From Bacteroidales bacterium (lineage in GTDB: Bacteria; Bacteroidota; Bacteroidia; Bacteroidales; UBA4417), in NCBI GenBank assembly GCA_038237165.1, contig JBBRYZ010000004.1, positions 1-58,243 on the forward strand: a DNA stretch of 58,243 nt. Direction: 5' to 3'. The notes beneath the pieces were generated by a model. That model saw only the letters and a list, made by a program, of their open reading frames with translations, ran no database searches and was not told the origin of the DNA. Of this stretch, positions 8,715 through 40,500 are shown piece after piece. A program made the position numbers and the translations under genes. Numbering within the stretch: the stretch's first letter is position 1; each line of letters begins with the position of its first letter.

Positions 8715-8754
8715 GCTAAAAAAAGTACCTGAAGTTTAGTAAAGTTTGGAGTGC

Positions 8755-10392: not shown

Positions 10393-10539
10393 ACAAGCTA
10401 TCCTCTTTTATAGCATTGACGGTGCTGATTAGGTAAAAAAGCTTTATGTGACAGCAAACAGTGCGGAAGTCAGAGGTTTAACAAAACAGTCAACAATTTT
10501 GTTAATTTTACCGCCTCATTTACTCTTAAAAAAATTATT

Positions 10540-11259: not shown

Positions 11260-11366
11260 AAGCTATTAGGACATAGACACCTTGTAAAAAACGAAATTCG
11301 AGAATCTGATATCGCCGGAAGATTGAAATTGTTGTTTGTTGAAACAGGAAGTTGACCAAAGACCGC

Positions 11367-12092
11367 TTATCTTCGCAGTTCGAAATTGCTTCCAAGGTAA
11401 ACTTTACGTACTTGTTCGTCGGCAGCCAGTTCTTCGGCTGTGCCCGATTTTAGCACCGAACCTTCGAAAAGGAGGTAAGCCCGGTCGGTGATATTTAAGG
11501 TTTCGTGTACATTATGATCGGTGATGAGAATACCGATATTTTTAGCCTTAAGTTTCACAACAATATTCTGAATATCTTCAACAGCAATAGGATCGACACC
11601 GGCAAAAGGCTCATCGAGCAAAATAAATTTTGGATCAGTTGCCAGCGCCCGTGCAATTTCGGTACGGCGGCGTTCACCTCCCGAAAGCTGAATTCCCATA
11701 CTTTTACGTACCTGATGTAATCCGAACTCATCGATAAGGGATTCCAGCTTTTCAGCCTGTTCCTTTTTATTCAGTTTTGTAAATTCGAGCACTGCCTTTA
11801 TGTTATCTTCAACGGAAAGTTTACGGAAAACCGAAGCTTCCTGAGCAAGGTATCCAATTCCGATCTGTGCTCTGCGGAATACCGGCTCATTGGTTATATC
11901 GCGATCATCAAGGAAGACTTTTCCCTGCAGAGGTTTGATAAGACCTACAATAATATAAAATGAAGTGGTTTTGCCGGCACCATTCGGACCAAGCAGCCCG
12001 ACTATTTCTCCTTGTTCAACCTTGATTGATACATGGTTAACAACAGTGCGCTGACGGTATTTTTTAACTAAATCTTCGGTACGTAATATCAT
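11367..12092 (-). CDS. lptB: LPS export ABC transporter ATP-binding protein
   Basis: [41 protein letters not shown]; start moved to the ATG at 12092. Confidence 0.95.
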
Positions 12093-27107: not shown

Positions 27108-28553
27108 TTAAGCATGGCTGCAATCGCATATTTTTTCGGTGTTCTGAATAAAGAAACGCTTTGCATCTTTTGGGAATTCGTGACTGCATGGACCGGAAAT
27201 GCAACCACCTTCGCAGGCCATAACTTCGATCAACTGGCTTTCTGCTGATTTAGCTTTTGCATAGGACGAAAGCAATCTCATCTGTTTCCTATCCAATCCA
27301 TTAAACACTTTTGAGGAAATGGTTATGCCAGCAACTGACTCCACTGCTGCCGCAACACCTCCCGAGAGGCAATAATTCCGCGAATGTTGATCCACACTTT
27401 CGTTAAGCGGCCGGTTTTCACATTCTACAACTGAAATTCCCCAAGCGTTGAAAAGGCAAGCCAGTTCTTCGAAAGTCATTACCCAGTCAATATCAGGATT
27501 ATTGCGACCCTCGTTTCTTTTAGCAATACAGGGACCAATAAAAACCACCGGTCCGGAAGGAAATTGTGCCTTGCACATCTTTGCAGAAATAGCCATAGGC
27601 GAAGGCGTATCTGATACATACGGCAGAATTTCAGGTATATGTTTTTGTGCCGCCATCACCCACGAAGGGCAGCAGGAAGTTGTCATAAACGCCTGCCCCG
27701 AATCCAGTTTATGAATAAGCTCTTCCGATTCGAGCCGGGTTGTGATTGAGGCACCTTCGGCAACTTCGGCCACATGAGTAAATCCAAGTTTGTATAAAGC
27801 GTCCAATACGGCTCCCGGTTCAGCCCTGAATTGTCCGAATATGGAAGGTGCAACTATTGCCGTTATTGGCTTCCTTTGTTTTAGCCTGGCCATGATTTCG
27901 AACAATTCTGTTGTTTCAAAAATCGATCCGAAAGGACAAGCATTCACACATTTTCCGCAAAGGATACATTTTTCCGCGTTAATCTTTTCAATTCCATTTT
28001 CATCCTTCGAAATAGCACCTACCGGGCATGATTCCTCACAGGGAACCGGCATGTAAATTATGGAATGGTACGGACACAAATCCTTGCAGATACCGCAATT
28101 CACACAAGTTGAAGGATCAATTATTGCCTTGCCTTCGCTGGTGCGTGAAATCGCTTTTTTAGGACAATTGTTCATACAGGACTGTGCAACACAGCCTTTG
28201 CATAAGTTGGTTATCACATAATTTGCTTTTACGCACGAGGTGCAAGCTTCGTCAACCACGGTGAGGAAACCAGCAGGCCGGTCTTTCCTGTTTATCGTCT
28301 TCTCAGCATAAAATGCAAGCGAGTCGAGTTCATCAATTTCATCTTCCCGTCCAAAACCAAGGATAGCCATTATTTTATACTTTACAACAGCTCTCATTTT
28401 ATAAACACAGCAACGTTCGTGTCCGCTCAACCGCCTGCTTATCTCCAAAGGAATGCGATCAATTTGCTCAAAAAGCTGATCATCTTTATATAATTCGGCC
28501 ATGCGGGTTATTAAATCGCGGCGGATTATCATCACATTATTTACAAATGCCAT
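27108..28553 (-). CDS. Monomeric [FeFe] hydrogenase, group B-like, with ferredoxin-type 4Fe-4S domains
   Basis: H-cluster motifs TTSCCPSW, GPCIAKRNE, EVMACEGGCISGP; CVNCGICKDLCP and CILCGKCVNACP. Confidence 0.9.
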   Translation of the reverse strand: MAFVNNVMIIRRDLITRMAELYKDDQLFEQIDRIPLEISRRLSGHERCCVYKMRAVVKYKIMAILGFGREDEIDELDSLAFYAEKTINRKDRPAGFLTVVDEACTSCVKANYVITNLCKGCVAQSCMNNCPKKAISRTSEGKAIIDPSTCVNCGICKDLCPYHSIIYMPVPCEESCPVGAISKDENGIEKINAEKCILCGKCVNACPFGSIFETTELFEIMARLKQRKPITAIVAPSIFGQFRAEPGAVLDALYKLGFTHVAEVAEGASITTRLESEELIHKLDSGQAFMTTSCCPSWVMAAQKHIPEILPYVSDTPSPMAISAKMCKAQFPSGPVVFIGPCIAKRNEGRNNPDIDWVMTFEELACLFNAWGISVVECENRPLNESVDQHSRNYCLSGGVAAAVESVAGITISSKVFNGLDRKQMRLLSSYAKAKSAESQLIEVMACEGGCISGPCSHEFPKDAKRFFIQNTEKICDCSHA

Positions 28554-28650
28554 AAAACAGTTTTATTTTGCAAAATGAGAAGTAGATGAAAACCAGATTT
28601 TAGTGTTTGGTTATTGACAGCGAACTCAAATTTCTAAAATCAGATCATAA

Positions 28651-28696
28651 CCTGTCCCATCCGTAACCGATATTACAGTTTGGGGAAAGGGACAGG
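28651..28696 (-). other. Intergenic stem-loop between adhE and the hydrogenase gene
   Basis: CCTGTCCC ... GGGACAGG 8-bp GC-rich arms about 30 bp after the adhE stop; no clear U tract. Confidence 0.5.
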
Positions 28697-28727
28697 AATG
28701 AGATTAAAAAGTATTTAAAGGAGAGTT

Positions 28728-31379
28728 TTAAGCCAGACCTTCGTAAGCTCTGGTGAACATTTCCTTTATTTCGAGAATGGATGGATAGCGTGGATTGGCA
28801 CCTGTACATTGATCGTCGAAAGCATTTTCCGAAAGCTGATCGAGACGTGCATAAAATTCCTTTTCAGGAACACCCGCATCCTTTATAGAAGCCGGAATAC
28901 CAACAGCCGCCTTTAGTTTATCAATGGCAGCAATAAGTCCTACCACTTTTTCTTCAGGAGTTGCTCCCTGAATACCCAGATAATCAGCCAGGCGGGCATA
29001 GCGGTAAATGGCATCGGGATATTTGTATTGAGGGAACGTAGCCTGTTTTCGTGGTGAGTTGGTGGCATTGAAGCGAATAACTTCATTAATAAGCAATGCG
29101 TTGGCAAGCCCATGAGGAACGTGAAATTCAGAACCCAGCTTGTGAGCCATGGAATGACATACACCCAGGAACGCATTTGCAAAAGCAATGCCGGCAATGG
29201 TGGCGGCGTAATGTATTTTTTCTCTGGCTTTCTGATTGCCACTTCCTTCGGTAACAGAGGCTTCGAGGTATTTGAAAATCAATCTGGCAGCTTCGAGCGC
29301 GTAAGGATTTGTGAACTCGGTTGCAAAAACCGAAGCCAGCGCCTCAACGGCATGGGTAAGTGCATCAACTCCTGACCAGGCGGCAAGTTTGGCAGGCATA
29401 GTCAGTACAAATTCAGGGTCGATAATGGCCATATTAGGCGTAAGCGAATAATCGGCGATTGGATATTTAATACCGGTTTTTTCATCCGTAACAACGGCAA
29501 AAGGAGTTACCTCGGAACCGGTGCCTGATGTGGTGGGAATAGCTACCATCATTGCCTTTTTGCCCAAAGCGGGAAACGCATAAATACGTTTGCGGATATC
29601 CATAAACCGAAGCGCAAGACCTTCGAACTCCATTTCGGGATGCTCGTACATAAGCCACATAATTTTAGCAGCATCCATTGCCGATCCGCCGCCGAGGGCA
29701 ATAATTACATCCGGCTGGAACGGACACATACGGGCCAGCCCTTTGCGGACATTGGCAAGCGTAGGATCAGGTTCTACTTCATAAAACACATTGGATTCGA
29801 TGTTCAGATTGTTAAGATACCTGACAACTTTTTCGCAATATCCGAGGTCGTAAATTGGTTTGTCAGTAACAATAAATGCTTTTTTCTTTCCTGCCAGATC
29901 CTGCAATGCTATTGGCAGTGAGCCTGTTTTGAAATAGATTTTTTCGGGCATACGAAGCCAAAGCATGTTTTCTCTCCTTTCGGCGTTGGTTTTTATATTT
30001 ATCAGATGTTTTATTCCTACGTTTTCGCTCACTGAATTCCCGCCCCACGATCCACATCCTAAGGTAAGCGATGGTTCCAGCCTGAAGTTATAAATATCGC
30101 CAATGGCTCCCTGCGAAGCCGGCATGTTGATCAGCAACCTTCCTGTTTTGATCAGCGAGCTGAACGATTCGATGCGATCGGTATTTTTAGGATCGGTGTA
30201 TAAAACCGAGGTATGGCCAATGCCTCCGAATTTCACCAACTGAGTTGCCAGGTATTCGGCTTCGCGGAAATCGCCTGCTTTGTATAACGCCAGGATGGGC
30301 GAAAGCTTTTCGTAACTAAAAGGCTCGGATACGCTTATTTCAGTGGCTTCGCCGATAAGCACCTTGGTGTTTTCGGGCACAGTTATGCCAGCCATTAAAG
30401 CGATATTAAAGGCTGATTGTCCTACGATGGCTGAATTTAAATGTGCATTCACGATCATTGTTTTGCCCACTTTTTCCTTTTCGTCAGCATTGAGGATATA
30501 TGCCTTATTATCGAGCAGGAGTTGTTTCACCTTATCGTAAACACTTGCTACAACCACCAGCGATTGCTCTGAAGCGCAGATCATACCGTTATCAAATGTT
30601 TTTGACATCAGAACCGAGCTTACCGCCATTTTCAGATTCGCGGTTTCGTCGATAATGGCAGGAGTATTTCCAGCACCCACGCCAATGGCCGGAACGCCGG
30701 ATGAATATGCCGCTTTTACCATTCCGGGGCCTCCTGTTGCCAGGATAAGGTTTAGATCCCGGTGATGCATAAGGTATTGCGAAGCCTCCACAGTGGGCAA
30801 ATCTATCCAGCCGATAATACCTTCGGGCGCACCGGCTTCTACAGCGGCATTAAGTACAATGCGGGCGGCTTCGATAGTTGATTTTGCAGCCCGGGGATGC
30901 GGCGAAAAAATAATGCCATTCCGAGTTTTTAAGGTGATGAGCGCTTTAAAAATTGCGGTAGAAGTTGGATTTGTGGTTGGCACAATGCCGGCTATTACTC
31001 CAATAGGCTCCGCATATTTCCTTATTCCGAATGTAAGATCCTCCTCGATCAGGCCAACCGTTTTTTCATCTTTATACTTGTTGTAAATGTATTCGGAAGC
31101 AAATTGATTTTTGATAACCTTGTCTTCAATTACGCCCATTCCGGTTTCTTCAACCGCCATCCTGGCAAGTTTAATCCTGTTCTGCGCTGCGGCAAAAGCG
31201 GCTTTCTGAAATATATGGTCAACTTGTTGCTGAGTGAAGGTGCGGTATATTTTCTGTGCATTTACAACTTTTTGAATTGTAGCTTCGATTACCGAAAACC
31301 TGTTTCCAATATTGATTTCCGCACTTACAGCTATGCCTTCGGTCTGCACTCCGGGTTCTTTCCTTGTTGATGTTTTCAT
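28728..31379 (-). CDS. adhE: Bifunctional acetaldehyde-CoA/alcohol dehydrogenase
   Basis: ALDH domain (PTTNPT, GVGAGN, CASEQ), linker AERRENM, Fe-ADH domain (GGGSAMD, DALTHAVE, HSMAHKLG..PHG). Confidence 0.97.
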   Translation of the reverse strand: MKTSTRKEPGVQTEGIAVSAEINIGNRFSVIEATIQKVVNAQKIYRTFTQQQVDHIFQKAAFAAAQNRIKLARMAVEETGMGVIEDKVIKNQFASEYIYNKYKDEKTVGLIEEDLTFGIRKYAEPIGVIAGIVPTTNPTSTAIFKALITLKTRNGIIFSPHPRAAKSTIEAARIVLNAAVEAGAPEGIIGWIDLPTVEASQYLMHHRDLNLILATGGPGMVKAAYSSGVPAIGVGAGNTPAIIDETANLKMAVSSVLMSKTFDNGMICASEQSLVVVASVYDKVKQLLLDNKAYILNADEKEKVGKTMIVNAHLNSAIVGQSAFNIALMAGITVPENTKVLIGEATEISVSEPFSYEKLSPILALYKAGDFREAEYLATQLVKFGGIGHTSVLYTDPKNTDRIESFSSLIKTGRLLINMPASQGAIGDIYNFRLEPSLTLGCGSWGGNSVSENVGIKHLINIKTNAERRENMLWLRMPEKIYFKTGSLPIALQDLAGKKKAFIVTDKPIYDLGYCEKVVRYLNNLNIESNVFYEVEPDPTLANVRKGLARMCPFQPDVIIALGGGSAMDAAKIMWLMYEHPEMEFEGLALRFMDIRKRIYAFPALGKKAMMVAIPTTSGTGSEVTPFAVVTDEKTGIKYPIADYSLTPNMAIIDPEFVLTMPAKLAAWSGVDALTHAVEALASVFATEFTNPYALEAARLIFKYLEASVTEGSGNQKAREKIHYAATIAGIAFANAFLGVCHSMAHKLGSEFHVPHGLANALLINEVIRFNATNSPRKQATFPQYKYPDAIYRYARLADYLGIQGATPEEKVVGLIAAIDKLKAAVGIPASIKDAGVPEKEFYARLDQLSENAFDDQCTGANPRYPSILEIKEMFTRAYEGLA

Positions 31380-31399
31380 TGTAGTTCTATATTTTAAAA

Positions 31400-31666
31400 T
31401 TAGCTTACTGTTTGTTTTTCGAGCGAATACAGGTATTCTATTATTTTTTCCTGCGATGCCTGTGGAATCAGTTTCCCGTCGATTTCCACATAAGGCGGCA
31501 TGGGTTTACTTTTCAGCAAATCGCATCCTAAGCATACGGCGGCTTCCACATATACTTTATCTTTCAGGTCTTCGGGAAGATGATCCTTGATGTCCTTAAG
31601 TTCATGATTTCCCATTACATAGCATTGAGTTCCAACGCAGATTTTCAATTTTAACTTCTTTTCCAT
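31400..31666 (-). CDS. Thioredoxin-like [2Fe-2S] ferredoxin (NuoE-like)
   Basis: ICVGTQC...CLGC...PPYVEIDG. Confidence 0.8.
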   Translation of the reverse strand: MEKKLKLKICVGTQCYVMGNHELKDIKDHLPEDLKDKVYVEAAVCLGCDLLKSKPMPPYVEIDGKLIPQASQEKIIEYLYSLEKQTVS

Positions 31667-31677
31667 TTTCGTAATTT

Positions 31678-32865
31678 TTACAGGTATTGTACTTTAACTT
31701 GTTTCAGAAATTTTTCTTCGAGTATGCATATGATTTTTTTAATGACATTCCTTCGTATTTCCAATTCAACAGGCAGGTTAGGATCCTGGTGCGCAACATT
31801 TACGCAAGTGCCTACCAGAAAATGAATTACGTCGGCATTCATCATATAGTTAATAATGGAAGCTGCCGGTCCTTCGATGGGAATATCCTGATTTTGAAGG
31901 GTTTTAAGTATCTGGCAAACTTTATCAAGGGTCAGGATTCCTTCGGTTACCAGATCAATCCCATCCATTTTAAAAGCCGGCGGAAGGCCGTAAATCATTT
32001 TGTCCATCGGCTCGGGTACTATCTCCCTGTTTAATTCGCGGGAGATAATTCTGGCTGTTGTACCTCCGCAAAGAATTTTAGTTCCTTTAAACTCATTTAC
32101 TGAATTAGCCAGAAATTTATCCTTAGCCTCAGTAAATGGCGGGCCTGAGCATAACAGGAGTTGGCGGGGTTTCCGGCGAAAGAATACGGCACAGCTTGCA
32201 TCGTCCTGTAGTTTATAAATATCATTTTGCGAAGCCTTTTTCACTACCGCTTTCGCCAAATCGCTGGCTGAAACTATCAGAGAAGCGGCGTTTTTTCTGA
32301 TCACAAAATCCTGCAGATTTTTATTCCCCCAGCCAAATGGCATACCGGCATTTCCTATTCCGGACTGAGTAATACCATCGCTAACCATTACCAGCCGGTC
32401 GTTTTCGAGAAGATTAAAGTTGGAAACATCCAGTTCGTTCATCTTGCCCGAATTGTTAAGCTGCATGGTTTCACGTTCCGGATTAATGATTTCGCCATTG
32501 CGTTCAATAAAAAAGGAAGGATTTCCGTATTCAATTACCGTTGTATCTCCTTCAAAATCAACATCTACAATAGTAAATGTTGAATAGCTGATTCCCCTAA
32601 TGCTATCAATGGGAAGTGTATCCATAATCCATTTGGCGGATTTAATTATGGGCTCGTGATGCAGACGGAAATTTAAAGCCATGCTGGCGGTGAGCGACGA
32701 TAGCACATTCGCTTTTATGCCGCTGCCCAGTCCATCGGATAATACTGCGACATAGCGGTTTTCGCCGGATACTTTTTTTGAAAGGAATGTATCGCCACAA
32801 ACCACTTTGTTGTTCTTATTCAACTGGTAAGCGCCAATTTCGATAATCAGATCATTTTCAGCCAT
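31678..32865 (-). CDS. SpoIIE/PP2C-family Ser/Thr phosphatase, HfsC-like
   Basis: CGDTF, LSDGLGSG, VSDGITQSG, QDDAS; C-terminal CGGTTA...EGILTL domain. Confidence 0.9.
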   Translation of the reverse strand: MAENDLIIEIGAYQLNKNNKVVCGDTFLSKKVSGENRYVAVLSDGLGSGIKANVLSSLTASMALNFRLHHEPIIKSAKWIMDTLPIDSIRGISYSTFTIVDVDFEGDTTVIEYGNPSFFIERNGEIINPERETMQLNNSGKMNELDVSNFNLLENDRLVMVSDGITQSGIGNAGMPFGWGNKNLQDFVIRKNAASLIVSASDLAKAVVKKASQNDIYKLQDDASCAVFFRRKPRQLLLCSGPPFTEAKDKFLANSVNEFKGTKILCGGTTARIISRELNREIVPEPMDKMIYGLPPAFKMDGIDLVTEGILTLDKVCQILKTLQNQDIPIEGPAASIINYMMNADVIHFLVGTCVNVAHQDPNLPVELEIRRNVIKKIICILEEKFLKQVKVQYL

Positions 32866-32866
32866 T

Positions 32867-34594
32867 TCAGTTGTCTAATTCGTTTGCAGCTTCCGGTCCT
32901 TCGGATTCAATAATAGTGTTGAGCATGGATTCGGTATAGGATGCATTTTCGCCCAGAAGAAAGGCAATTTTCTGAACCACAGCCATATTTTGGTGAATTA
33001 CATCTTTAACCGAACTTTTTATCATGGCATTGCGGACTTCGGGTTCGCGAATATTCTGTATTACCCCGCAAACGATTTTGCCGGGTTGTATGGTTACGAT
33101 GGAAACATGCAGCATCAGCCCATTGTCACGAATGGTGTGTTCTATCATTTCCTCGCCGGTGCGGAGTACGGAAGTGAACATTTTATAAAATGGTATAAGT
33201 TTGCGCAAATCAGCTTTTTCGAGGCTGTTATCCAGTTCATAAAGGGATTGAACTTCGCCACCCAGTATTTCAGCGAATTTTTTGTTCGAATCGATTACTT
33301 TGAGGTTTTCGTCAGCAATTACAACGCCGTAAGGTATTTTTTTGAGAAGCACCGATGCCTTTCCGTGAGCCACTTTACGGGTATATGAAACACACATCAT
33401 GCGTTCAGCTTTGCCTTCGACCATTGCTTTTGCAAAATCGCGGCAGTTATCGTATCCGCATCCGCCACAGTTTAGTTCATCACTTGTGTCGAACTTGCCA
33501 GCTGCATGCAAGGCAGAGGTTATTTCATCAGGGGTTATTTGCTGATGCAAAAGAGGATGAATCTGTTCGAAACTGGCAGATAACTCCATGGTATATGGGA
33601 GTCCTGGTATGGTAGGCTTCAGGTTGCGGGTTGCTTCGAGTACTTTCTGGCGTTTCAGAGCGGCCGAAGCTGAGCTTGTTGTTCCGGGACCTTTGATGCA
33701 GCCGCCTTCACAAGCCAGGAGCTCTAGAAAAATCTTCTCATCGGTTTTCCAATCATTCAGATCAGTAAGCACATCTTTAATATGATTGATACCCGAAAAC
33801 GACATATAGGATAAATCGGTAATCTCTGCCTTGGTTTTAAGGTTGGCAATCATTCCTCCATCCACCGGAAAGAAATTTCCTTTTCCTGCAGGATAAGGGA
33901 TAAAGGCCTTGTCCACTGAAGTTTTTATATTCTGCCAGCCTGGAAGCTCAGTTTCCAGCCAATCATTCAGATCGCGGAAAGTAAGCACAACATCTGTGAA
34001 TCCATGGTCGAGTTCAGTCTTTTTGGCAATGCAGGGGCCAAAAAAAGCAATCTTTATATCAGACCCATACATCTCCTGCAGCATTTGGGCATGAGCCTGC
34101 ATAGGTGATACAATCGGAATAAGGTGTGATTTAAGTTCTGGATAATAACGGCAGATAAATTGTACTACCGAAGGGCAACATGAAGAAATAAATATACCAT
34201 TCGTCTGATTTTCAATCCACTCTGCAGTTTGTCTGGATACAATTTCGGCACCCAAAGCTGTTTCCGAAACTCCAAAGAAGCCAAGCCTGGAAAATATTCC
34301 GGAAAGTTGTGTTGCATTCATGCCCGGAAATTCGCTCACCCACGAAGGTGCCACACACGCGATAACTTTTGCACCACTGCCGAGGTATCTGTGTAATTCA
34401 GGCATATCATCACGCACTGTTTTGGCACCTACCGGGCAAACCTGTACACAATGACCACAAAATATACATTGTTCGGGGATGATGGATGCACTGCCGTCTT
34501 CAATCTTAATTGCCTTAACAGGGCACTGGCGTATGCATTTGTAACAATCCTGGCAATTGTTTTTTTCGGTATAAATAGGTTGCAGACGATTCAT
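32867..34594 (-). CDS. Group C putative sensory [FeFe] hydrogenase with FeS and PAS-like domains (HfsB/HydS-like)
   Basis: CQDCYKCIRQCP, SSCCPSVV, GPCIAKKTE, ELLACEGGCIKGP, LNCGGCGYDNC, C-terminal PAS-like IPYGVVIADENLKV. Confidence 0.9.
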   Translation of the reverse strand: MNRLQPIYTEKNNCQDCYKCIRQCPVKAIKIEDGSASIIPEQCIFCGHCVQVCPVGAKTVRDDMPELHRYLGSGAKVIACVAPSWVSEFPGMNATQLSGIFSRLGFFGVSETALGAEIVSRQTAEWIENQTNGIFISSCCPSVVQFICRYYPELKSHLIPIVSPMQAHAQMLQEMYGSDIKIAFFGPCIAKKTELDHGFTDVVLTFRDLNDWLETELPGWQNIKTSVDKAFIPYPAGKGNFFPVDGGMIANLKTKAEITDLSYMSFSGINHIKDVLTDLNDWKTDEKIFLELLACEGGCIKGPGTTSSASAALKRQKVLEATRNLKPTIPGLPYTMELSASFEQIHPLLHQQITPDEITSALHAAGKFDTSDELNCGGCGYDNCRDFAKAMVEGKAERMMCVSYTRKVAHGKASVLLKKIPYGVVIADENLKVIDSNKKFAEILGGEVQSLYELDNSLEKADLRKLIPFYKMFTSVLRTGEEMIEHTIRDNGLMLHVSIVTIQPGKIVCGVIQNIREPEVRNAMIKSSVKDVIHQNMAVVQKIAFLLGENASYTESMLNTIIESEGPEAANELDN

Positions 34595-34626
34595 GGCAGA
34601 GTTGTTATCAGCGAAAGCGTAAATAG

Positions 34627-34923
34627 TTAAAGTCCGAAATGAAAGCGCAATACTTTTTCGAGTTTTGCCGGATCAACTTCGCTGTACATAATGTCGTCGA
34701 TTTCAATATTCGGGCCGGTAATACATTGGTCAATACAAAGATGACCGGCAAAATCCACCTTGTCAGTAACTTTATTCACTTTCAGAAAGCGTTCGATATA
34801 CTCCAGGTTTGTTTCTTTGGCTTTTGAAAAGCATGAACTTCCGAGGCAAATCCTGATCTTATGAACGGTTGCTTTCGTTTCGGTTTTCTGCTGAATGGTT
34901 TGAAGGTTGCTTTGAGTGTTCAT
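34627..34923 (-). CDS. Thioredoxin-like [2Fe-2S] ferredoxin, HfsA-like
   Basis: ICLGSSCFSK...GHLCIDQCITGPNIEID; start 34923 or 34956. Confidence 0.85.
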   Translation of the reverse strand: MNTQSNLQTIQQKTETKATVHKIRICLGSSCFSKAKETNLEYIERFLKVNKVTDKVDFAGHLCIDQCITGPNIEIDDIMYSEVDPAKLEKVLRFHFGL

Positions 34924-34959
34924 TGTCTTTGAAATTTGATGATCAATTAAGATCATCTA

Positions 34960-34977
34960 TTGTTATTTGATTAACAA
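34960..34977. promoter_or_regulatory. Rex-type operator
   Basis: TTGTTATTTGATTAACAA, one mismatch from TTGTTAA-N4-TTAACAA; the dyad extends to TATTGTTA/TAACAATA. Confidence 0.65.
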
Positions 34978-34980: not shown

Positions 34981-34996
34981 GACAAGTAACATGCCA
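34981..34996 (-). promoter_or_regulatory. Sigma54 (-24/-12) promoter of the hfs-adhE operon
   Basis: Minus strand TGGCATGTTACTTGTC against TGGCACG-N4-TTGCW; spacing is correct, -12 reads GT instead of GC; adjacent bEBP gene. Confidence 0.75.
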
Positions 34997-35169: not shown

Positions 35170-35246
35170 CTTAAATTGTCCTGAGTCAGGACAATTTAAG
35201 ATATTTTTAACTGTTCGAAAACAGGACAGTGTTCAGTTTCAGTACA
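35170..35246. promoter_or_regulatory. Three TGT-N11-ACA enhancer (UAS) boxes
   Basis: TGTCCTGAGTCAGGACA 35177-35193 (inside a 15-bp-arm perfect dyad), TGTTCGAAAACAGGACA 35212-35228, TGTTCAGTTTCAGTACA 35230-35246. Confidence 0.7.
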
Positions 35247-35251: not shown

Positions 35252-37177
35252 TCAGGAATTGAAAGTTGAAACGTGCAGCAGATCATACCTTTTCATTTTC
35301 TGGTAGAGCGTATTCCTGCTTATTCCAAGGGATTCTGCTGATTTTGAAATATTATTCTGAAAATGTGCTATCGTGCGAATAATATTATTTTTCTCATGTT
35401 CATCCAGGCTCCTTATTTCTTCTTTGTCCGGATGTGGAAGCTGAGGTTGCGCTATTCTGGAAGAGCCCTGTGGCGCCAAATGTAAAATACTGTTCTTATC
35501 AAGATTACCTTTGAGTATCACGGCTCGTTCCATCAGGTTTTCGAGTTCACGGATATTCCCAGGCCAGTTGTATTGCACAAGAGCCTCAACGAGGTCGGGC
35601 TTAAGTTCGGGAATGGGAATATCGAAGCGGGCAGCATTCCGTTTCAGAAAATGATGCATAAGCGGAAGAATATCCTCCCTGCGATCGCGAAGCGGCGGTA
35701 TCACTACCTCGAATACATTGAGCCGGTAATACAAATCGAGTCGGAATTTACCTGCCTTTACTTCGTCTTCAAGATTCTTGTTGGTTGCAGCGATAATTCT
35801 CACATTAACCGGCACCGGATTATTGCCTCCGACGCGGATAACGGCTTTTTCCTGAATGGCGCGCAGAAGTTTCACCTGCATTTCGAGGGGCATTTCGCCA
35901 ATTTCGTCCAGGAAGAGTGTTCCTTTATCGGCAAGTTCAAATTTACCGGTTTTCCCTCCTTTTTTTGCCCCGGTAAAAGCACCATCGGCATACCCGAACA
36001 ATTCGCTTTCGATGAGTGATTCGGAAATTGCGCCACAATTGATGGCAACAAAAGGACGGTCGCGCCTGGGGCCGGCATGATGAATACTTTGAGCTATGAT
36101 CTCCTTTCCGGTTCCCGATTCGCCGCTGATCAAAACTGAGGAATGATTTTTTGCGATTGTTTTTGAGTATCGAATTAACTCAGTGGTTTGTTTGCTTTCG
36201 CCGATAAAATCAGTAAATGAATACCTTGTACTATATTCAGTGTACTTATTGATCATTTTTAAAATACCACTGATTTCCCTGAACGACAGCAGGTAGCCAA
36301 GGATTTCTTCCTCTTTGGTTTTGATAAGAAAGGCATTGAACAGAAACCGATCTTTAACTTTTGAAATGCTGAAACGGTTTTCTTCGTCAGAATAGGTTTC
36401 ATTTTGAAGAATGATTTCTTTAACCTGAAACCAGTCGGGAAAAATATGCTCAATTGGTTTGTCGATTAAATCGAGCCGCCGTGTATTTATGGAACGGCAT
36501 GCAGTATCGTTAACCCAAAGGATATGATCGTTCAGATTTATCGCGAAGAGCCCGTATGTGAGGTTATTCATCATCGAAAAAGCGAACTGATTTGAGCTGT
36601 GTAACTGTTTCTGTATATTGATATTGTTGATGTGGTATTCTATAGTTGCAACGGCAGCTACCACCATGCCAAGGGTATGCGGATGAACAAGTTCGCTTTT
36701 TCCAGTAAGATTCAGAACGCCGATAATGTTTTTAGATGCATCATGAATAGGTGCAGCCGAGCAGGTCCATTGATGGAAAATCGTGATAAAATGCTCATTG
36801 GCAGTAATCTGAATAGGACAATTTTCGGACAAGGCGGTTCCTACAGCATTGGTTCCTGCATTTTTTTCGTCCATATAAGCTCCCAAAACCAGGTTATGCC
36901 TTGCAGCTTCATCCAGCGGCTCAGTATCTCCGGCCATTTCGATAATCCGGCCATTTTTATCCGTGAGTATAATGATGAAACCGGAGTTTTTCAGGAAGTC
37001 GTATAAATCCTCAATGATAGGGGAAGTAATCTCGATAAGATCAGCGTTTTCCTTAAGCAGCTTCCGTATCTGAGGCGCTGTACTAAATCGTGTGTGATCA
37101 ACACCATCTTTGGCGATCCCGAATTCCTTACTTCTTTTATGCGACTGTTTAATGATCTCTTTGTGATTCCTGTCCAT
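35252..37177 (-). CDS. Sigma54-dependent transcriptional activator, AcoR-type (GAF-PAS-AAA+-Fis HTH)
   Basis: GAF motif GTNAVGTAL..EHF..WTCSAAPI; GESGTGKE, GAFTGA, LFLDE, DLYYRLN; HTH LGISRNTLY; start set to the ATG at 37177. Confidence 0.92.
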   Translation of the reverse strand: MDRNHKEIIKQSHKRSKEFGIAKDGVDHTRFSTAPQIRKLLKENADLIEITSPIIEDLYDFLKNSGFIIILTDKNGRIIEMAGDTEPLDEAARHNLVLGAYMDEKNAGTNAVGTALSENCPIQITANEHFITIFHQWTCSAAPIHDASKNIIGVLNLTGKSELVHPHTLGMVVAAVATIEYHINNINIQKQLHSSNQFAFSMMNNLTYGLFAINLNDHILWVNDTACRSINTRRLDLIDKPIEHIFPDWFQVKEIILQNETYSDEENRFSISKVKDRFLFNAFLIKTKEEEILGYLLSFREISGILKMINKYTEYSTRYSFTDFIGESKQTTELIRYSKTIAKNHSSVLISGESGTGKEIIAQSIHHAGPRRDRPFVAINCGAISESLIESELFGYADGAFTGAKKGGKTGKFELADKGTLFLDEIGEMPLEMQVKLLRAIQEKAVIRVGGNNPVPVNVRIIAATNKNLEDEVKAGKFRLDLYYRLNVFEVVIPPLRDRREDILPLMHHFLKRNAARFDIPIPELKPDLVEALVQYNWPGNIRELENLMERAVILKGNLDKNSILHLAPQGSSRIAQPQLPHPDKEEIRSLDEHEKNNIIRTIAHFQNNISKSAESLGISRNTLYQKMKRYDLLHVSTFNS

Positions 37178-37202
37178 TAAGTAGTTGTGATAAATTAAAG
37201 TG

Positions 37203-37210
37203 CAAAGGTA
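37203..37210 (-). promoter_or_regulatory. Housekeeping -7 element for the activator gene
   Basis: TACCTTTG on the minus strand, 25 bp upstream of ATG 37177. Confidence 0.55.
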
Positions 37211-37532
37211 AGTGGTTTTCGCTGGTCTCCAATCTGCAACTGTCACCACATTTCTCAAACAGATATGTAATTGCCAGAACTAATGAGATGTAACATATTG
37301 AATATCATAGTATTCGTTTATTAGCCCAAACTTGTTCCCAGGCGAATCAAAATCAATAAAATTGCCCAGTAAAGAAATTGAGATTCGAGTGTAAATATTT
37401 ATTTTAAGATTATTCCAAATAGCCTATTACAAATTGGTAAAATAGCTATTAACTTATACATTTCATTACTTGGCCGGCTCTATCCTAACTACATTTTTCT
37501 GATTATCAGATATCTACTACTAACGAGGAACT

Positions 37533-40500
37533 ATGATACAAGCTCTACTCAACCTGCTCAGGGTGGCTATGTCGTTAAGGCATTTGCTACCTGTATTCTT
37601 GTTTACACTTGGAAGCCTGAATCTTCACGCACAATGCCCCCCTACTGTTACTGCCGTTCCATCGTCATCAAGCCAGGAAACCACAGCTTCAACAGCTACA
37701 ATTTGCTCAGGCGATTCGGTACAGATGAATGCTGCTCCATCAACGGGTACAACATGGCAATGGTATAAAGACGGGGTACTTATATCCGGGGCAACAAAAA
37801 GTACATACTACGGCATGGACAATGCCAATTATACGGTCAGGGTCGGAGGTTGCGGATCCCAGTCCCAAATTTTTCACATTACACTCAAACCACTGCCTAT
37901 ATTATCTATTATTCCTTCCTCGAAGGCTTTATGTGATGGCCAGGATGTCACGCTTTTTGTGAATGCAGGAGCTAATGTTGGCTGGGTTTGGATAAACCCA
38001 AATCCAAGTTCTATATATCTCACGAACATTAATCCAGTGACCCCAAATGTTACTACCACTACTACCTTTCAGGTTGTGGGTGGAAGCACCATTACCGGAT
38101 GTGCCAAAACAGATGCTGTTACCATAGTAGTATATCCTATTTTAGTACCGGCAGGTATACAATCAGATGCCCAGATTTGCCCGGGCGCAACACCTCCTTT
38201 AATTACATCGACGCCACCATCAGGCAGCAGCGGAGTATATACCTACCAATGGCAGAGCAGTACAACAAGCGCTACAACCGGGTTCACCGATATTCCAGGG
38301 GCAACTTCTCCTACTTATCAGCCGGGGCCAACTTTGGTTACAACGTGGTACAGGTTAGCAACAATCTCAGCACCTTGCGACCCTGAGAATTCGAATGCTG
38401 TTATTGTCAAGATAAATCCATTTCCAATCTTAACCAGTCCGCCACCGAAAGCAATTTGTTCAGGTAACAATGTTAACTATCAACCTACGAGCAATGTAGG
38501 AGGAACTACATATAAATGGACTGCATCAGTTACATCAGGAACTGTTACCGGTTTTTCACCAACAGGTACTGGTAAAATTAATGACGTTTTATCATTATCT
38601 GCGGGATCTACAACTCCTGGAAAAGTAACGTATGTTATAACTCCTTTTGGTCCGGCGCCTGCAAGTTGCCCCGGCACTCCAAAGAACCTTGTTGTTACTG
38701 TAAATCCAATTCCATTAGTAACTAACTCTCCTCTTTCGCAGGATATTTGTGCGGGAACATTTACCACTCCAATTATTTTACAATCCAACTTAGCCGGCAC
38801 ATCATTTACCTGGACTGCAACTGCCACACCAGGAATTAGCGGTTACCTGGCTTCAGGATCTGGGGATATAGCATCAAGGCAGATTTTTAGTTCGTTGCTT
38901 GTTGCCGGCACCGTAAAATATACCATAACACCTCACGGTCCGTCTCCTGCCAGTTGCGATGGGCCTTCAGTTGTATATACAGTTAATGTTAATCCTTCTC
39001 CCAGTATTACGAATAATCCTATGCAGCAAACCATTTGTACAGGAGATAAAACAACCGCTGTAACACTTACATCAAATGTAGTCTCAACCACATTTACCTG
39101 GACTGCTTCAGCAGTTCCTGCAAGTGTTTCGGGATACCAGGCAAGCGGCACAAGCATAATCCCTGCTCAAACTATAACAAATCCATCCAATGTTCCCGGA
39201 TTAGTAACCTACCATATTATTCCAAGCGGAAGTTTAAACGGATGCCCCGGAGTTCCAAGCGATTATGTAATAACCGTTAATCCTAAACCTATCGCAACTG
39301 CAACTCCCCCGGTTTTAACAATCTGTTCGGGTGATAAAACCAATATAGCTTTATCATCAACAGTTGCCGGAACAACATTTAACTGGATAGCCAGTTCACC
39401 TTTTGTAATATCAGGATTCAGCGATGGAAGTGGCTCTTCAATTAACCAAACTCTGTCAAATAATACGAATACCCCGCATGATGTAACTTATGTTATAATT
39501 CCTACTGCAAACGGATGTGTCGGAGATCCGATAAATGTTGTTGTTACCGTTAACCCGGAAATGGATCTGACTGTTGTTCCTCCGGTTACTTGTTCGGGTA
39601 ATAATGTGGATATTAATCTCGTTGGTAATATGCCAGGAATTGCATTTTCGTGGACTGCTTTTCCGGTTGGCAATGTTACCGGATATACCGATGGAACAGG
39701 ATCAACTATTTCACAAACTCTTGTGAATCATGACGATGTTACACGCACGGTTGTATATTCTGTAACAATGTCAAAATACGGCTGTGACGATGGGCCAAAT
39801 AATTTTACGGTTACAGTTTCCCCTGATCCCAGGGTGACGAATAATCCACTTAAAACGACCCAATGTTCAGGTGATGTATTTAACCTGGCATTGACTTCAA
39901 ATGTCGCCGGAGCTACTTTTACCTGGACTGCCAATGGCACTTCGGGAATTTCCGGTTTTGTATCAGGCGGCGGAAGCACTATTAATCATTTGCTTCAAAA
40001 CAGCTCTAATGCACCGGGAACAGTAGTTTATACAATTACTCCCAGTGCCAACGGGTGTGCAGGAACACCTGTAAATTATGTAGTAACGGTAAACCCTATT
40101 CCAACAGTCAATCTTAGTCCTGCCAGCCAGGCTATATGTTCAGGAAGTTCCACCTTGCCGGTTACTCTTTCATCGCCGGTTGCCGGAACAACATTTACAT
40201 GGACGGCTTCACCATCGGGATCCGGCATCTCGAGTTATACAGCTTCAGGATCTGCCATAATCCCTTCCCAGGTAATTAACAGTACATTATCAGTTCAGGG
40301 TGCAGTAACCTATAAGGTAACGCCTTCGTTTTCAGGATGCACAGGCCCAACTGCCAATCATATTGTAACTATAAATCCAATACCACAGGTTATTAACGCA
40401 CCTATGTCGCAAACCATTTGTTCAGGAGCTACTTCTGCAAATGTTAACTTACTTTCGAATGTTGCAGGCACAACCTTTACCTGGATAGCAACAGCATCAT

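What the first reader, a model, noticed from the sequence alone, without database searches (positions are those of the whole stretch)
27108..34923. adhE embedded inside an hfs-like H2-sensing operon with a group B hydrogenase
The co-oriented gene order is 2Fe-2S protein, PAS-containing group C hydrogenase, PP2C phosphatase, second 2Fe-2S protein, adhE, catalytic hydrogenase; gaps are 1-32 bp as far as adhE. hfsABCD is known from Thermoanaerobacterium, where loss of hfsB raises ethanol yield, but adhE is not part of that operon. Here the H2 sensor and both electron sinks appear co-transcribed, suggesting an H2-versus-ethanol switch in Bacteroidota (inference). I do not know of this architecture being described.
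Basis: partly seen in the sequence, partly recalled or inferred. Interest (0 to 1): 0.85.

Follow-up and report, generated by a model that had tools for sequence, protein, structure and literature searches.

The report
Hydrogen-sensor operon carrying adhE, Lentimicrobiaceae
A sediment Bacteroidales bacterium keeps its only ethanol-forming enzyme gene inside an operon with a putative hydrogen sensor and a hydrogen-producing enzyme, a grouping already described in the rumen bacterium Ruminococcus albus but wired here to a different kind of promoter.

Summary
On the minus strand lie, in order, a thioredoxin-like 2Fe-2S protein, a PAS-type HydS hydrogenase, an HfsC-type PP2C phosphatase, a second small 2Fe-2S protein, AdhE and a group B [FeFe] hydrogenase. 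Gaps are 32, 1, 11, 20 and 174 bp.

The novelty claim does not hold as stated. Ruminococcus albus 7 carries the same gene set in another order (rex-adhE-kinase-fdx-fdx-hydS-PP2C-hydA2). That cluster is published as an H2-responsive eight-gene unit (PMC6776011). A 2026 preprint reports hydS, PP2C and an alcohol dehydrogenase together in Kiritimatiellia.

What I did not find in print is the regulation:
- an adjacent GAF-PAS sigma-54 activator;
- three TGT-N11-ACA sites, a -24/-12 promoter and a Rex-like operator, conserved in 7 orthologous loci;
- a HydS that keeps the proton-relay cysteine.

In the genus, all 7 full-length adhE genes found in 45 genomes sit in this operon. Elsewhere in the order, fdx88-adhE-hydB stands alone behind the same promoter type.

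Expression could not be tested, and H2 sensing is inferred. Verdict: new variant of a known kind, of moderate interest.

The parts
35252..37258 (-). Sigma-54 enhancer-binding protein, 668 aa: GAF, PAS, AAA+ sigma-54 interaction domain and Fis-type HTH. It has no receiver domain.
   Evidence: Sigma54_activat 236 bits, AAA_lid_14, HTH_8, GAF 33.4 bits, PAS below cut-off; best NCBIfam models are PrdR and DhaR, both below cut-off. It lies next to the operon in 8 of the 9 verified loci that carry the embedded adhE; the ninth, G056, is cut by a contig end. It is also adjacent in G011, G018 and G034, which lack adhE.
35230..35246 (-). Putative activator site 1, TGTACTGAAACTGAACA (TGT-N11-ACA). It begins 6 nt after the activator's stop codon.
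   Evidence: Conserved position in G000, G049, G057, G058, G003, G010 and G031. The motif type matches the TGT-N10-12-ACA sites reported for AdhR-type activators (PMC6615313).
35212..35228 (-). Putative activator site 2, TGTCCTGTTTTCGAACA, 18 bp after the start of site 1.
   Evidence: The tandem pattern of sites 1 and 2 occurs once in the window and in 0 of 100 shuffles. Among the 137 loci held, it occurs only at the orthologous places of 8 genomes.
35177..35193 (-). Putative activator site 3, TGTCCTGACTCAGGACA. It forms the core of a 14-bp stem followed by TTTTTAT, so it may also terminate the activator gene.
   Evidence: (terminator-like 35200..35170). The stem sequence TGTCC...GGACA is kept in 7 loci while the surrounding spacer diverges.
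34982..34996 (-). Sigma-54 type -24/-12 promoter, TGGCATGTTACTTGT.
   Evidence: it is the only match in the window, though 50 of 100 shuffles also give at least one match, so the count alone proves nothing. TGGCA[CT]-N5-TTG[CT] stands at the same place in G049, G057, G058, G003 and G010, TGGTAC-N5-TTGG in G031, and TGGCAC-N5-TTGC in L045. rpoN is present in the genome.
34960..34977 (-). Rex-operator-like palindrome, TTGTTAATCAAATAACAA, starting 5 nt after the promoter match.
   Evidence: Genome-wide, 16 sites match at 13 or more of 14 specified positions, and 15 of the 16 are intergenic. Neighbours include nuoE/hydC-like, mmdA, rubrerythrin, mutase, AOR-like and citE genes. One rex gene lies on contig C18. 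The Rex consensus itself is recalled, not taken from a call.
34627..34956 (-). Thioredoxin-like [2Fe-2S] protein (HfsA-like), 109 aa. The start may instead be the ATG at 34923.
   Evidence: PF01257 33.8 bits against 24.8. Orthologues precede HydS in most loci.
32867..34594 (-). HydS/HfsB-type putative sensory [FeFe] hydrogenase, 575 aa: two N-terminal 4Fe-4S motifs, H-domain, Cx2Cx4Cx16C, PAS. Cys139 is kept at the CpI C299 position.
   Evidence: R. albus HydS is 33% identical over 97% of the length.
31678..32865 (-). HfsC-type PP2C phosphatase (residues 1-230) fused to a conserved alpha/beta C-terminal domain (about residues 231-395) with no known family.
   Evidence: SpoIIE. (invariant D25, D44, D163, D221, D222). 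(pLDDT 83.8; SpoIIE and RsbX folds, E down to 4e-14). for the C-terminal domain: no Pfam hit, pLDDT 89.3, and no PDB match at E <= 0.001.
31400..31666 (-). Second small 2Fe-2S-like protein (fdx88), 88 aa. In relatives without adhE it directly precedes the group B hydrogenase gene.
   Evidence: sub-threshold matches, four Cys. (fdx88-hydB adjacency in G011, G034 and many other loci).
28728..31379 (-). AdhE, bifunctional acetaldehyde-CoA/alcohol dehydrogenase, 883 aa. It is the only full-length adhE found in the genome.
   Evidence: NF010378 1378.6 bits against 951..
28651..28696 (-). Stem-loop in the 174-bp adhE-hydB spacer (CCTGTCCC...GGGACAGG), a possible attenuator or RNA-stability element.
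   Evidence: A comparable strong hairpin is present in G049, G057, G058, G003 and G010. A T-run follows it in G003 and G058, and after a different hairpin in L045. There is no spacer hairpin in G031, where the gap is 16 bp.
27108..28553 (-). Group B (B1) monomeric [FeFe] hydrogenase (HfsD-like), 481 aa. H-cluster motifs TSCCP, GPC and MACEGGC are intact.
   Evidence: TIGR04105 483.6 bits against 450.. Next-best genome hits are at most about 27% identical, apart from HydS at 33%.

Best explanation
This is a sigma-54-dependent fermentation operon of a Lentimicrobiaceae bacterium. It joins an hfs-type hydrogen-sensor module (2Fe-2S protein, PAS-HydS, HfsC phosphatase) to an effector module (small 2Fe-2S protein, AdhE, ferredoxin-dependent group B hydrogenase).

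Proposed working:
1. The neighbouring GAF-PAS activator binds three TGT-N11-ACA sites and fires the -24/-12 promoter.
2. Rex, encoded elsewhere in the genome, sits on an operator just downstream of the promoter and releases when NADH rises.
3. One transcript runs through fdx-hydS-pp2c-fdx88-adhE. It passes a conserved stem-loop into hydB, possibly at a reduced level.
4. AdhE then disposes of NADH as ethanol, and HydB disposes of reduced ferredoxin as H2. By analogy with R. albus 7, this is the mode used when H2 is high and the bifurcating HydABC route becomes unfavourable.
5. HydS reads H2 at its H-cluster and passes the state through its C-terminal [4Fe-4S] cluster and PAS domain to the PP2C. 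The phosphatase resets an unidentified phosphoprotein that feeds back on the operon or on AdhE.

Shown here: gene content, order, and conservation of the cis elements. Inferred: every binding event, co-transcription, H2 sensing, and the direction of regulation.
For: Gene identities.

Conserved architecture, activator included.

Cis elements:
- Three TGT-N11-ACA sites stand at fixed spacings of 18 and 35 bp, followed by TGGCA[CT]-N5-TTG[CT] and a Rex-like palindrome, in 7 orthologous loci.
- The tandem-site pattern occurs once in the window against 0 of 100 shuffles. In the loci held, it occurs only at orthologous places.
- rpoN and rex are both present.
- The Rex-like motif is intergenic at 15 of 16 genome sites, next to redox and fermentation genes.

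Literature precedent for the activator:
- AdhR, a GAF-PAS sigma-54 activator with three activator sites, drives alcohol dehydrogenase genes in C. beijerinckii (PMC7017808, passages).
- The TGT-N10-12-ACA motif class is reported for such activators (PMC6615313, passages).

Precedent for the module: the R. albus 7 cluster is co-regulated by H2 level (PMC6776011).

Linkage:
- All 7 full-length adhE genes found in 45 genomes of the genus lie between fdx88 and hydB of this operon.
- In a sample of 301 genomes of the order, 8 have full-length adhE. Six of those 8 have hydrogenase or sensor genes beside it, and a seventh has the activator beside it.

Unfused state: G236 carries fdx88-adhE-hydB behind the same three-site, sigma-54 and Rex-like promoter. 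Its activator and its rex-fdx-HydS-PP2C genes lie about 180 kb away. This points to one regulon and a sensor that acts in trans.

Supporting context: a HydABC-type cluster and HydG are present.
Against: - There are no expression data. No RNA run holds the stretch, so co-transcription and H2 response are untested.
- The -12 element in the window reads TTGT, not TTGC. A single promoter match is expected by chance in half of the shuffles.
- Site 3 plus its T-run looks like an ordinary terminator of the activator gene.
- HydS keeps the proton-relay cysteine. Loss of that cysteine is one of the arguments used in print for a sensory rather than catalytic role (PMC8163306 and PMC8924675).
- No Ser/Thr kinase gene like the one in the R. 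albus cluster was found in the genome with that query, and no PP2C substrate is identified.
- The stem-loop, followed by a T-run in some relatives, could uncouple hydB from the operon.
- In T. saccharolyticum, whole-operon and single-gene hfs deletions gave conflicting phenotypes (PMC5707799). The sensor model is therefore not settled even in the best-studied system.
Confidence: 0.6

Rival explanations
1. There is no sensing. The operon encodes a catalytic Hfs-type hydrogenase system (HydS and HydB with their 2Fe-2S partners) co-expressed with AdhE simply as two electron sinks. HydS, which keeps the proton-relay cysteine, is a working enzyme. The PP2C has a structural or maturation role.
For: - Cys139 stands at the CpI C299 position, and S319 and E282 equivalents are kept.
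- hfs was first described as the main H2-producing hydrogenase locus of T. saccharolyticum. Deleting it lowers hydrogenase activity (PMC5707799 passages; PMC8924675).
Against: - The Cx2Cx4Cx16C cluster (80 of 80) and the PAS region accompany a PP2C-linked HydS throughout, and the catalytic Asp residues of the PP2C are invariant.
- E279 and R286 equivalents are replaced by Q and N. M353 is replaced by G and M497 by L.
- G236 keeps HydS-PP2C next to rex and away from any hydrogenase partner.
- In R. albus the homologous cluster responds to H2 level.
Confidence: 0.15
2. HydS and PP2C act after translation on AdhE rather than on transcription. The phosphatase, encoded two genes upstream, sets the phosphorylation state and hence the activity of AdhE according to H2.
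For: - In T. saccharolyticum, changes in adhE transcript could not explain all changes in ADH/ALDH activity after hfs deletions (PMC5707799 passage).
- adhE lies beside HfsC-type loci in several phyla and in several orders of genes.
Against: - No kinase partner was found, and no phosphosite is known from any call.
- Many HfsC loci have no adhE nearby: 69 of the best 80.
- G236 separates the two modules by about 180 kb.
Confidence: 0.12
3. The adjacency carries little regulatory meaning. adhE (with fdx88 and hydB) landed behind the sensor genes by rearrangement, and adhE and/or hydB are transcribed from their own promoters.
For: - There is a 174-bp spacer with a strong hairpin before hydB, and terminator-like T-runs follow the hairpin in G003 and G058, and a different hairpin in L045.
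- The distribution is patchy: 7 of 45 genomes of the genus.
- The generic promoter scan lists many sigma-70-like matches, 40 found against 28.5 expected.
Against: - The fdx88-adhE gap is 20 bp in the window and short in all orthologues.
- The order is kept down to 62% HydS identity and across families.
- G031 has only 16 bp between adhE and hydB.
- The standalone trio in G236 uses the same promoter type as the fused operon.
- adhE-sensor linkage recurs independently.
Confidence: 0.1

Closest known systems
Ruminococcus albus 7 pRUMAL01 cluster rex-adhE-phosphotransferase-fdx-fdx-hydS-SpoIIE-hydA2 (Zheng 2014, not held; Greening 2019, PMC6776011)
   Same: - The enzyme and sensor parts are the same: AdhE (59% identical), two small 2Fe-2S proteins, PAS-HydS (33% over 97%), an HfsC-type PP2C (32%), and a roughly 480-aa monomeric hydrogenase that also passes TIGR04105 (577 bits).
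- All genes are co-oriented.
- Both genomes also hold a HydABC-type enzyme (for this genome).
   Different: - adhE is the second gene in R. albus and the fifth here.
- R. albus has rex and a kinase-like gene in the cluster. Here rex is on another contig, only a Rex-like operator is present, and no kinase homologue was found.
- Here a sigma-54 activator, three activator sites and a -24/-12 promoter are present.
- The phylum is Bacteroidota, not Bacillota.
- The cluster is chromosomal among T9SS genes rather than on a megaplasmid.
- H2-responsive expression is shown for R. albus only.
hfsABCD of Thermoanaerobacterium saccharolyticum (Shaw 2009, recalled; Eminoglu 2017, PMC5707799)
   Same: - The four-part core is the same: small 2Fe-2S protein, PAS-hydrogenase HfsB, PP2C HfsC and group B hydrogenase HfsD.
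- There is a functional link to ethanol: hfsA or hfsB deletions raise adhE transcript two- to threefold.
   Different: - adhE is elsewhere in that genome, so the link acts in trans.
- Here fdx88 and adhE sit between the phosphatase and the hydrogenase.
- No sigma-54 control is reported in the passages I read.
- I held no hfs sequences, so identities were not measured.
SigL/AdhR control of adhA1 and adhA2 in Clostridium beijerinckii (PMC7017808; regulon reconstruction PMC6615313)
   Same: - The activator has GAF, PAS, AAA+ and HTH domains.
- It has three upstream sites of the TGT-N10-12-ACA class and a -24/-12 promoter.
- The target is an alcohol dehydrogenase gene.
- The authors propose interplay with Rex.
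   Different: - The target here is a six-gene operon that includes hydrogenases and a phosphatase.
- The phylum differs.
- Orthology to AdhR is untested, because no AdhR sequence was in hand.
- Binding is shown there and only inferred here.
Group C (M2f) putative sensory [FeFe] hydrogenases such as TmHydS (PMC8163306, PMC8924675)
   Same: - The domain order is the same, with the Cx2Cx4Cx16C motif.
- M353 is replaced by Gly, as in TmHydS.
- A PAS region is present.
   Different: - The cysteine that starts the proton path (CpI C299) is present here and in all 13 Bacteroidales-clade sequences of alignment A4.
- It is Ala in the other 22 sequences of A4, and in 64 of 80 PP2C-linked HydS overall.

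Membership tests
hfs-type operon (hfsABCD) | First gene encodes a small thioredoxin-like 2Fe-2S protein | tested here: met
   PF01257, 33.8 bits against 24.8.
hfs-type operon (hfsABCD) | HfsB: a hydrogenase with N-terminal 4Fe-4S motifs, an H-domain and a C-terminal Fe-S motif plus PAS | tested here: met
   Fer4, Fe_hyd_lg_C and PF04060. Exact Cx2Cx4Cx16C motif. PAS is sub-threshold in Pfam and supported by the Atlas.
hfs-type operon (hfsABCD) | HfsC: a SpoIIE/PP2C phosphatase immediately after the sensor gene | tested here: met
   1-bp gap. SpoIIE 47.7 bits. PP2C fold at E 4e-14. Invariant metal-binding Asp residues.
hfs-type operon (hfsABCD) | HfsD: a group B [FeFe] hydrogenase as the last gene | tested here: met
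   TIGR04105, 483.6 bits against 450. TsHfsD is called group B in PMC8924675.
hfs-type operon (hfsABCD) | Four contiguous genes with no metabolic enzyme between them | tested here: not met
   fdx88 and adhE lie between the phosphatase and the hydrogenase.
[quoted passage not shown] | The four H-cluster-binding cysteines are present | tested here: met
   C140, C188, C295 and C299 (own numbering) are invariant in 35 sequences.
[quoted passage not shown] | The proton-relay cysteine (CpI C299) is not conserved | tested here: not met
   SSCCP, with Cys139 aligned to CpI C299.
[quoted passage not shown] | The methionines framing the 2Fe subsite (M353, M497) are replaced | tested here: met
   GPC (Gly) and ELLAC (Leu).
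[quoted passage not shown] | Placement in group C by HydDB or by phylogeny | not testable with these tools
   HydDB is not on hand. No NCBIfam model specific to group C matched.
[quoted passage not shown] | H2-dependent signalling | not testable with these tools
   Needs biochemistry or genetics.
R. albus-type adhE-hydS-hydA2 cluster | adhE, HydS, PP2C and a monomeric hydrogenase co-oriented in one cluster | tested here: met
R. albus-type adhE-hydS-hydA2 cluster | rex gene inside the cluster | tested here: not met
   The only rex is on contig C18. The window has only a Rex-like operator.
R. albus-type adhE-hydS-hydA2 cluster | Kinase-like (phosphotransferase) gene inside the cluster | tested here: not met
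   tblastn with the R. albus protein found nothing in the genome at E <= 1e-5. The genome is 88.85% complete.
R. albus-type adhE-hydS-hydA2 cluster | Co-regulation by H2 level | not testable with these tools
   No RNA holder listed.
Sigma-54 / AdhR-type regulon | Activator with GAF, PAS, AAA+ and HTH domains next to the target | tested here: met
   Adjacency is conserved.
Sigma-54 / AdhR-type regulon | Conserved -24/-12 element, with rpoN in the genome | tested here: met
   In the window the -12 element reads TTGT.
Sigma-54 / AdhR-type regulon | Several TGT-N10-12-ACA sites upstream of the promoter | tested here: met
   Three sites at fixed spacing in 7 loci, and also in G011 and G236.
Sigma-54 / AdhR-type regulon | Sequence orthology to C. 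beijerinckii AdhR | not tested
   No AdhR sequence was held. The best NCBIfam models (PrdR, DhaR) are below cut-off.
AdhE (bifunctional acetaldehyde-CoA/alcohol dehydrogenase) | Full-length match to the equivalog model above its cut-off | tested here: met
   NF010378, 1378.6 bits against 951, covering residues 28-881.

The most novel reading that the evidence does not exclude
The operon is a three-input decision point found so far only in a Bacteroidales clade.
- H2 is read by a HydS that kept its proton-relay cysteine and so turns over fast enough to track H2.
- NADH is read by Rex.
- A third signal is read by the GAF-PAS domains of a receiver-less sigma-54 activator.

The HfsC phosphatase would act directly on that activator. 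This would make it a case of Ser/Thr dephosphorylation controlling a bacterial enhancer-binding protein. The uncharacterised alpha/beta C-terminal domain of HfsC would be the docking or sensing part. The fused operon would then be a self-amplifying loop that commits the cell to ethanol plus ferredoxin-driven H2.
Probability: 0.12. Interest if true: 0.7.

Novelty: new variant of a known kind. Interest (0 to 1): 0.45.

Why it matters
Hydrogen partial pressure decides whether fermenters make acetate or more reduced products, and so shapes carbon flow to methanogens and sulfate reducers in sediments and guts. How bacteria sense H2 through [FeFe] sensor hydrogenases is still called putative in the literature I read.

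This locus adds three usable things.
- It shows that the sensor-AdhE-hydrogenase grouping known from one Firmicute recurs in Bacteroidales and several other phyla, in different gene orders. That is comparative support for a real functional link.
- It gives a clearly delimited promoter (three activator sites, a -24/-12 element and a Rex-like box). It also gives a natural pair of fused and unfused states, this window and G236, that can be tested directly.
- It identifies a clade of sensors that retain the proton-relay cysteine. These are a natural counterpart to the engineered variants studied in TamHydS.

It does not open a new category of system.

Tried and rejected
Expression. The look-up of sequencing runs listed no RNA holder. 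The only near-complete holder is a sediment metagenome run that may be the source of this DNA. I therefore laid no reads and make no claim on expression.

Binding. Complex prediction on HydS plus PP2C, using alignments A4 and A3, gave no verdict (score 0.00). It counts neither for nor against binding.

C-terminal domain of the phosphatase.
- Pfam at E <= 10 found nothing.
- The Atlas found only unnamed clusters.
- Foldseek against the PDB found no match at E <= 0.001. The best was the methylglyoxal synthase fold at E 0.013 and TM 0.40.
- I considered an STAS-like or kinase-like domain and dropped both for lack of any match.

Generic scans. The sigma-70 promoter and terminator scan is close to shuffle expectation for terminators (12 found against 11.3). 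It was used only for the hairpin after the activator gene.

Papers.
- Zheng et al. 2014 (PMC4248817) is not held. I know it only through citing passages.
- Supplementary files were not opened. Table S7 of PMC6776011 and the datasets of PMC12578642 may hold gene lists or neighbourhoods that bear on prior description.
- For a described Bacteroidota or sigma-54 version I ran the searches. I saw none in the listings or in the passages I read. This covers the held library only.

HydDB classification could not be run.

Full report
WHAT IS THERE

Six co-oriented genes occupy window 34956..27108 on the minus strand:
- a 109-aa thioredoxin-like 2Fe-2S protein;
- a 575-aa hydrogenase with Fer4, Fe_hyd_lg_C and PF04060 domains;
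- a 395-aa SpoIIE/PP2C phosphatase;
- an 88-aa four-cysteine protein with only sub-threshold 2Fe-2S similarity;
- an 883-aa AdhE (NF010378, 1378.6 bits against 951);
- a 481-aa hydrogenase that passes the group B1 model TIGR04105 (483.6 against 450).

The gaps are 32, 1, 11, 20 and 174 bp.

Directly upstream on the same strand lies a 668-aa sigma-54 activator with GAF, PAS, AAA+ and HTH domains (35252..37258). On the far side is a divergent 5019-aa PKD-repeat gene followed by PorP/SprF, which fits Bacteroidota. The nearest named relative is an uncultured Lentimicrobiaceae MAG.

THE SENSOR GENE

The 575-aa protein has the group C layout:
- two N-terminal 4Fe-4S motifs;
- the four H-cluster cysteines;
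- an exact Cx2Cx4Cx16C motif;
- a C-terminal region that Pfam scores as PAS only below its cut-off (E 0.0013 and 0.0039), but whose nearest Atlas clusters (0.93-0.98) carry PAS families.

R. albus HydS aligns at 33% identity over 97% of its length.

One defining trait is not met. The cysteine that starts the proton path in group A enzymes (CpI C299) is said not to be conserved in sensory subclasses (PMC8163306; PMC8924675). Here it is present.
- The motif reads SSCCP, with Cys139 aligned to C299.
- Among 80 PP2C-linked HydS that I extracted, this position is Ala in 64 and Cys in 5.
- In alignment A4 it is Cys in 13 of 35 sequences. All 13 come from the Bacteroidales clade around the window.
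- The S319 and E282 equivalents are kept. E279 and R286 are replaced by Q and N.
- M353 is Gly and M497 is Leu.

THE PHOSPHATASE

Residues 1-230 model as a PP2C (pLDDT 83.8; SpoIIE, RsbX and related folds at E down to 4e-14). The metal-binding aspartates are invariant.

Residues 231-395 form a separate alpha/beta domain. It is conserved across phyla and modelled with confidence (pLDDT 89.3). It has no Pfam family, no named Atlas cluster and no PDB match at E <= 0.001.

CONSERVATION AND DISTRIBUTION

Within the genus, which is the only genus of its family in the collection (45 genomes):
- The orthologous phosphatase (72-95% identical) occurs in G049, G057, G058, G003 and G010.
- Each of those five loci has the full order: activator, fdx, HydS, PP2C, fdx88, AdhE, HydB.
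- G056 has the same order but is cut by a contig end inside the phosphatase gene.
- Full-length adhE was found in exactly these 7 of 45 genomes, and nowhere else in them.
- So every adhE found in the genus sits in this operon.

Other relatives:
- G031, from another family of the order, and the Bacteroidales MAG in L045 share the embedded order.
- G011 and G034 have the operon without adhE, so fdx88 directly precedes hydB.
- G011 and L045 carry an iron alcohol dehydrogenase gene right after the activator.

Across public genomes:
- At least 596 HfsC-type loci were detected.
- Of the best 80, 11 have a full-length co-oriented adhE within 10 kb. Two have it embedded, seven upstream and two downstream.
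- These 11 come from Bacteroidales, gut Alphaproteobacteria MAGs, Victivallaceae, Planctomycetaceae, Terracidiphilus and a rumen bacterium.

In an even sample of 301 genomes of the order, 8 have full-length adhE. Their contexts are as follows:
- 2 have the embedded order (the window and G031);
- 2 have fdx88-adhE-hydB, or adhE-hydB cut by a contig end, without sensor genes (G236 and G105);
- 2 have rex-adhE-HydS-PP2C as in R. albus (G287 and G239);
- 1 has rex and the activator next to adhE (G070);
- 1 has none of these neighbours (G061).

THE PROMOTER REGION

Between the activator's stop codon and the first operon gene I find the following elements.
- Three TGT-N11-ACA sites lie at 35246-35230, 35228-35212 and 35193-35177. 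Their starts are 18 and 35 bp apart.
- TGGCATGTTACTTGT lies at 34996-34982.
- The palindrome TTGTTAATCAAATAACAA lies at 34977-34960.

The same three elements, with the same site spacing, stand in G049, G057, G058, G003, G010 and G031. The rest of the spacer has diverged.

The tandem pattern of sites 1 and 2 occurs once in the 58-kb window and in none of 100 shuffles. In the 137 loci held, it occurs only at the orthologous places of 8 genomes. The single promoter match on its own is not significant, since 50 of 100 shuffles give at least one. Position and conservation carry the argument.

Site 3 is also the stem of a terminator-like hairpin followed by a T-run, so it may serve both purposes.

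The genome has one rpoN and one rex. The Rex-like motif matches at 13 or more of 14 specified positions at 16 genome sites. Fifteen of these are intergenic, and their neighbours include nuoE/hydC-like, methylmalonyl-CoA decarboxylase and mutase, rubrerythrin, AOR-like and citrate lyase genes. The Rex consensus that I used is recalled.

From the literature:
- AdhR of C. beijerinckii is a GAF-PAS sigma-54 activator with three upstream sites. It drives two alcohol dehydrogenase genes, and its authors discuss interplay with Rex (PMC7017808, passages).
- AdhR-type sites are of the TGT-N10-12-ACA class, and some clostridial activators carry hydrogenase-like N-terminal domains (PMC6615313, passages).

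FUSED AND UNFUSED STATES

In G236 the trio fdx88-adhE-hydB stands alone, with divergent genes upstream. It sits behind three TGT-N11-ACA sites at the same 18- and 35-bp spacing, a TGGCATGTTAATTGA promoter and a Rex-like palindrome. That genome's activator orthologue and its rex-fdx-HydS-PP2C unit lie about 180 kb away on the same contig.

The window therefore looks like a fusion of two units of one regulon, a sensor unit and an effector unit. In the unfused state the sensor must act in trans.

THE LAST GENE

The 174-bp spacer before hydB holds a stem-loop (28696-28651).
- Comparable strong hairpins occur in G049, G057, G058, G003 and G010.
- A T-run follows the hairpin in G003 and G058.
- L045 has a different hairpin, also followed by a T-run.
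- G031 has only 16 bp between the two genes.

Coupling of hydB to the operon is therefore less certain than coupling of adhE, and may be attenuated.

CONTEXT IN THE GENOME

Contig C18 carries the following:
- a nuoE-nuoF-hydA cluster, which is group A and HydABC-like;
- a hydrogenase-histidine kinase fusion;
- rex;
- a Rex-like box;
- a divergent second fdx-HydS-PP2C module. A phosphatase of this paralogous type (about 45-49% identical to the window's) turned up in most of the 45 genomes searched.

HydG is present, and HydF is split over two contig ends. The organism thus has the same enzyme set as R. albus 7: a bifurcating-type hydrogenase, a monomeric ferredoxin-type hydrogenase, AdhE and sensors.

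COMPARISON WITH WHAT IS KNOWN

R. albus 7 pRUMAL01 is annotated rex, adhE, phosphotransferase, two 2Fe-2S proteins, HydS, SpoIIE phosphatase and a 478-aa hydrogenase. That hydrogenase scores 577 bits on TIGR04105, although the paper calls it group A1.

PMC6776011 reports this as an eight-gene cluster down 111-fold in co-culture with a hydrogen consumer. It proposes direct H2 sensing by the co-transcribed sensor. A 2026 preprint notes hydS with a PP2C and an alcohol dehydrogenase in Kiritimatiellia. In T. saccharolyticum, adhE is a candidate target of hfs acting in trans.

The grouping of sensor, AdhE and hydrogenase is therefore known. I did not find the following described (searches; held library only; supplements not seen):
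- the Bacteroidales form with adhE between the phosphatase and the hydrogenase;
- sigma-54/activator control of such an operon;
- the cysteine-retaining sensor clade.

MECHANISM AND VERDICT

The best-supported reading is a sigma-54 operon, gated by Rex, that co-expresses the sensor pair with the two sinks used when H2 is high. AdhE handles NADH and HydB handles reduced ferredoxin. HydS and PP2C feed back on an unidentified phosphoprotein. I give this 0.6.

Gene content and cis-element conservation are shown. Binding, co-transcription, H2 sensing and the sign of regulation are inferred. Expression could not be examined, and the complex prediction gave no verdict.

This is a new variant of a known kind, with interest about 0.45.

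Noticed in passing
window 31681-32175 (-), residues 231-395 of the phosphatase: HfsC-type phosphatases carry a conserved C-terminal alpha/beta domain of about 165 aa, with GPP, CGGTT, TEG and AHQDP motifs. It has no Pfam family and no PDB match at E <= 0.001, although the model is confident (pLDDT 89.3). It is conserved from Bacteroidota to Spirochaetota, Acidobacteriota and Planctomycetota.
   Followed up: partly
window 34178-34180 (-), HydS Cys139: A Bacteroidales clade of PP2C-linked HydS keeps the proton-relay cysteine (SSCCP). Most relatives have Ala (SSACP): 64 of 80 extracted, and 22 of 35 in alignment A4.
   Followed up: partly
G000 contig C18, locus L126 6592-8613 (-): A 673-aa fusion of an [FeFe] hydrogenase H-domain with a histidine kinase lies next to a HydABC-like cluster, another histidine kinase and rex. 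With HydS and HydS2, this gives the genome three candidate H2 sensors.
   Followed up: partly
G000 contig C18, locus L126 13137-16809 (+): A second fdx-HydS2-PP2C2 module (phosphatase 48% identical) lies divergent from the HydABC-like cluster, with a Rex-like box between them. A phosphatase of this paralogous type turned up in most of the 45 genomes of the genus that were searched.
   Followed up: partly
L138 (G236:C6) 6721-11700 and L144: fdx88-adhE-hydB stands as a separate three-gene unit behind the same three-site, sigma-54 and Rex-like promoter. The activator and rex-fdx-HydS-PP2C lie about 180 kb away. This is the unfused state of the window's operon.
   Followed up: partly
window 28651-28696 (-) and orthologous spacers: The hairpins between adhE and hydB in several genomes share arm sequences (CTGTYCC...GGRACAG). 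These resemble the half-sites of the activator sites but with a much longer loop. It is not clear whether this is more than a terminator or stabiliser.
   Followed up: no
L029 11835-13268 (R. albus 7 pRUMAL01): R. albus HydA2, called group A1 in PMC6776011, scores 577 bits on the NCBIfam group B1 model TIGR04105 (cut-off 450) and only 158 bits on the group A model.
   Followed up: no
window 37533-52592 (+) and 52673-53800 (+): A 5019-aa protein made almost wholly of PKD-type repeats (at least 30 matched stretches), followed by a PorP/SprF gene. It is probably a giant type IX secretion cargo.
   Followed up: no
window 17632-19047 (-): A separate 471-aa aldehyde dehydrogenase, 31% identical to the N-terminal half of AdhE. 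Its context was not examined.
   Followed up: no
G000 genome, 16 sites (for example C18:34997, C33:26759, C40:28087, C100:10435): A candidate Rex regulon. Rex-like palindromes are intergenic at 15 of 16 sites, next to hydC-like, mmdA, methylmalonyl-CoA mutase, rubrerythrin, AOR-like and citrate lyase genes.
   Followed up: partly
G000 C73:1-624 and C9:6-350: The HydF maturase gene is split across two contig ends, so those two contigs are probably neighbours.
   Followed up: no
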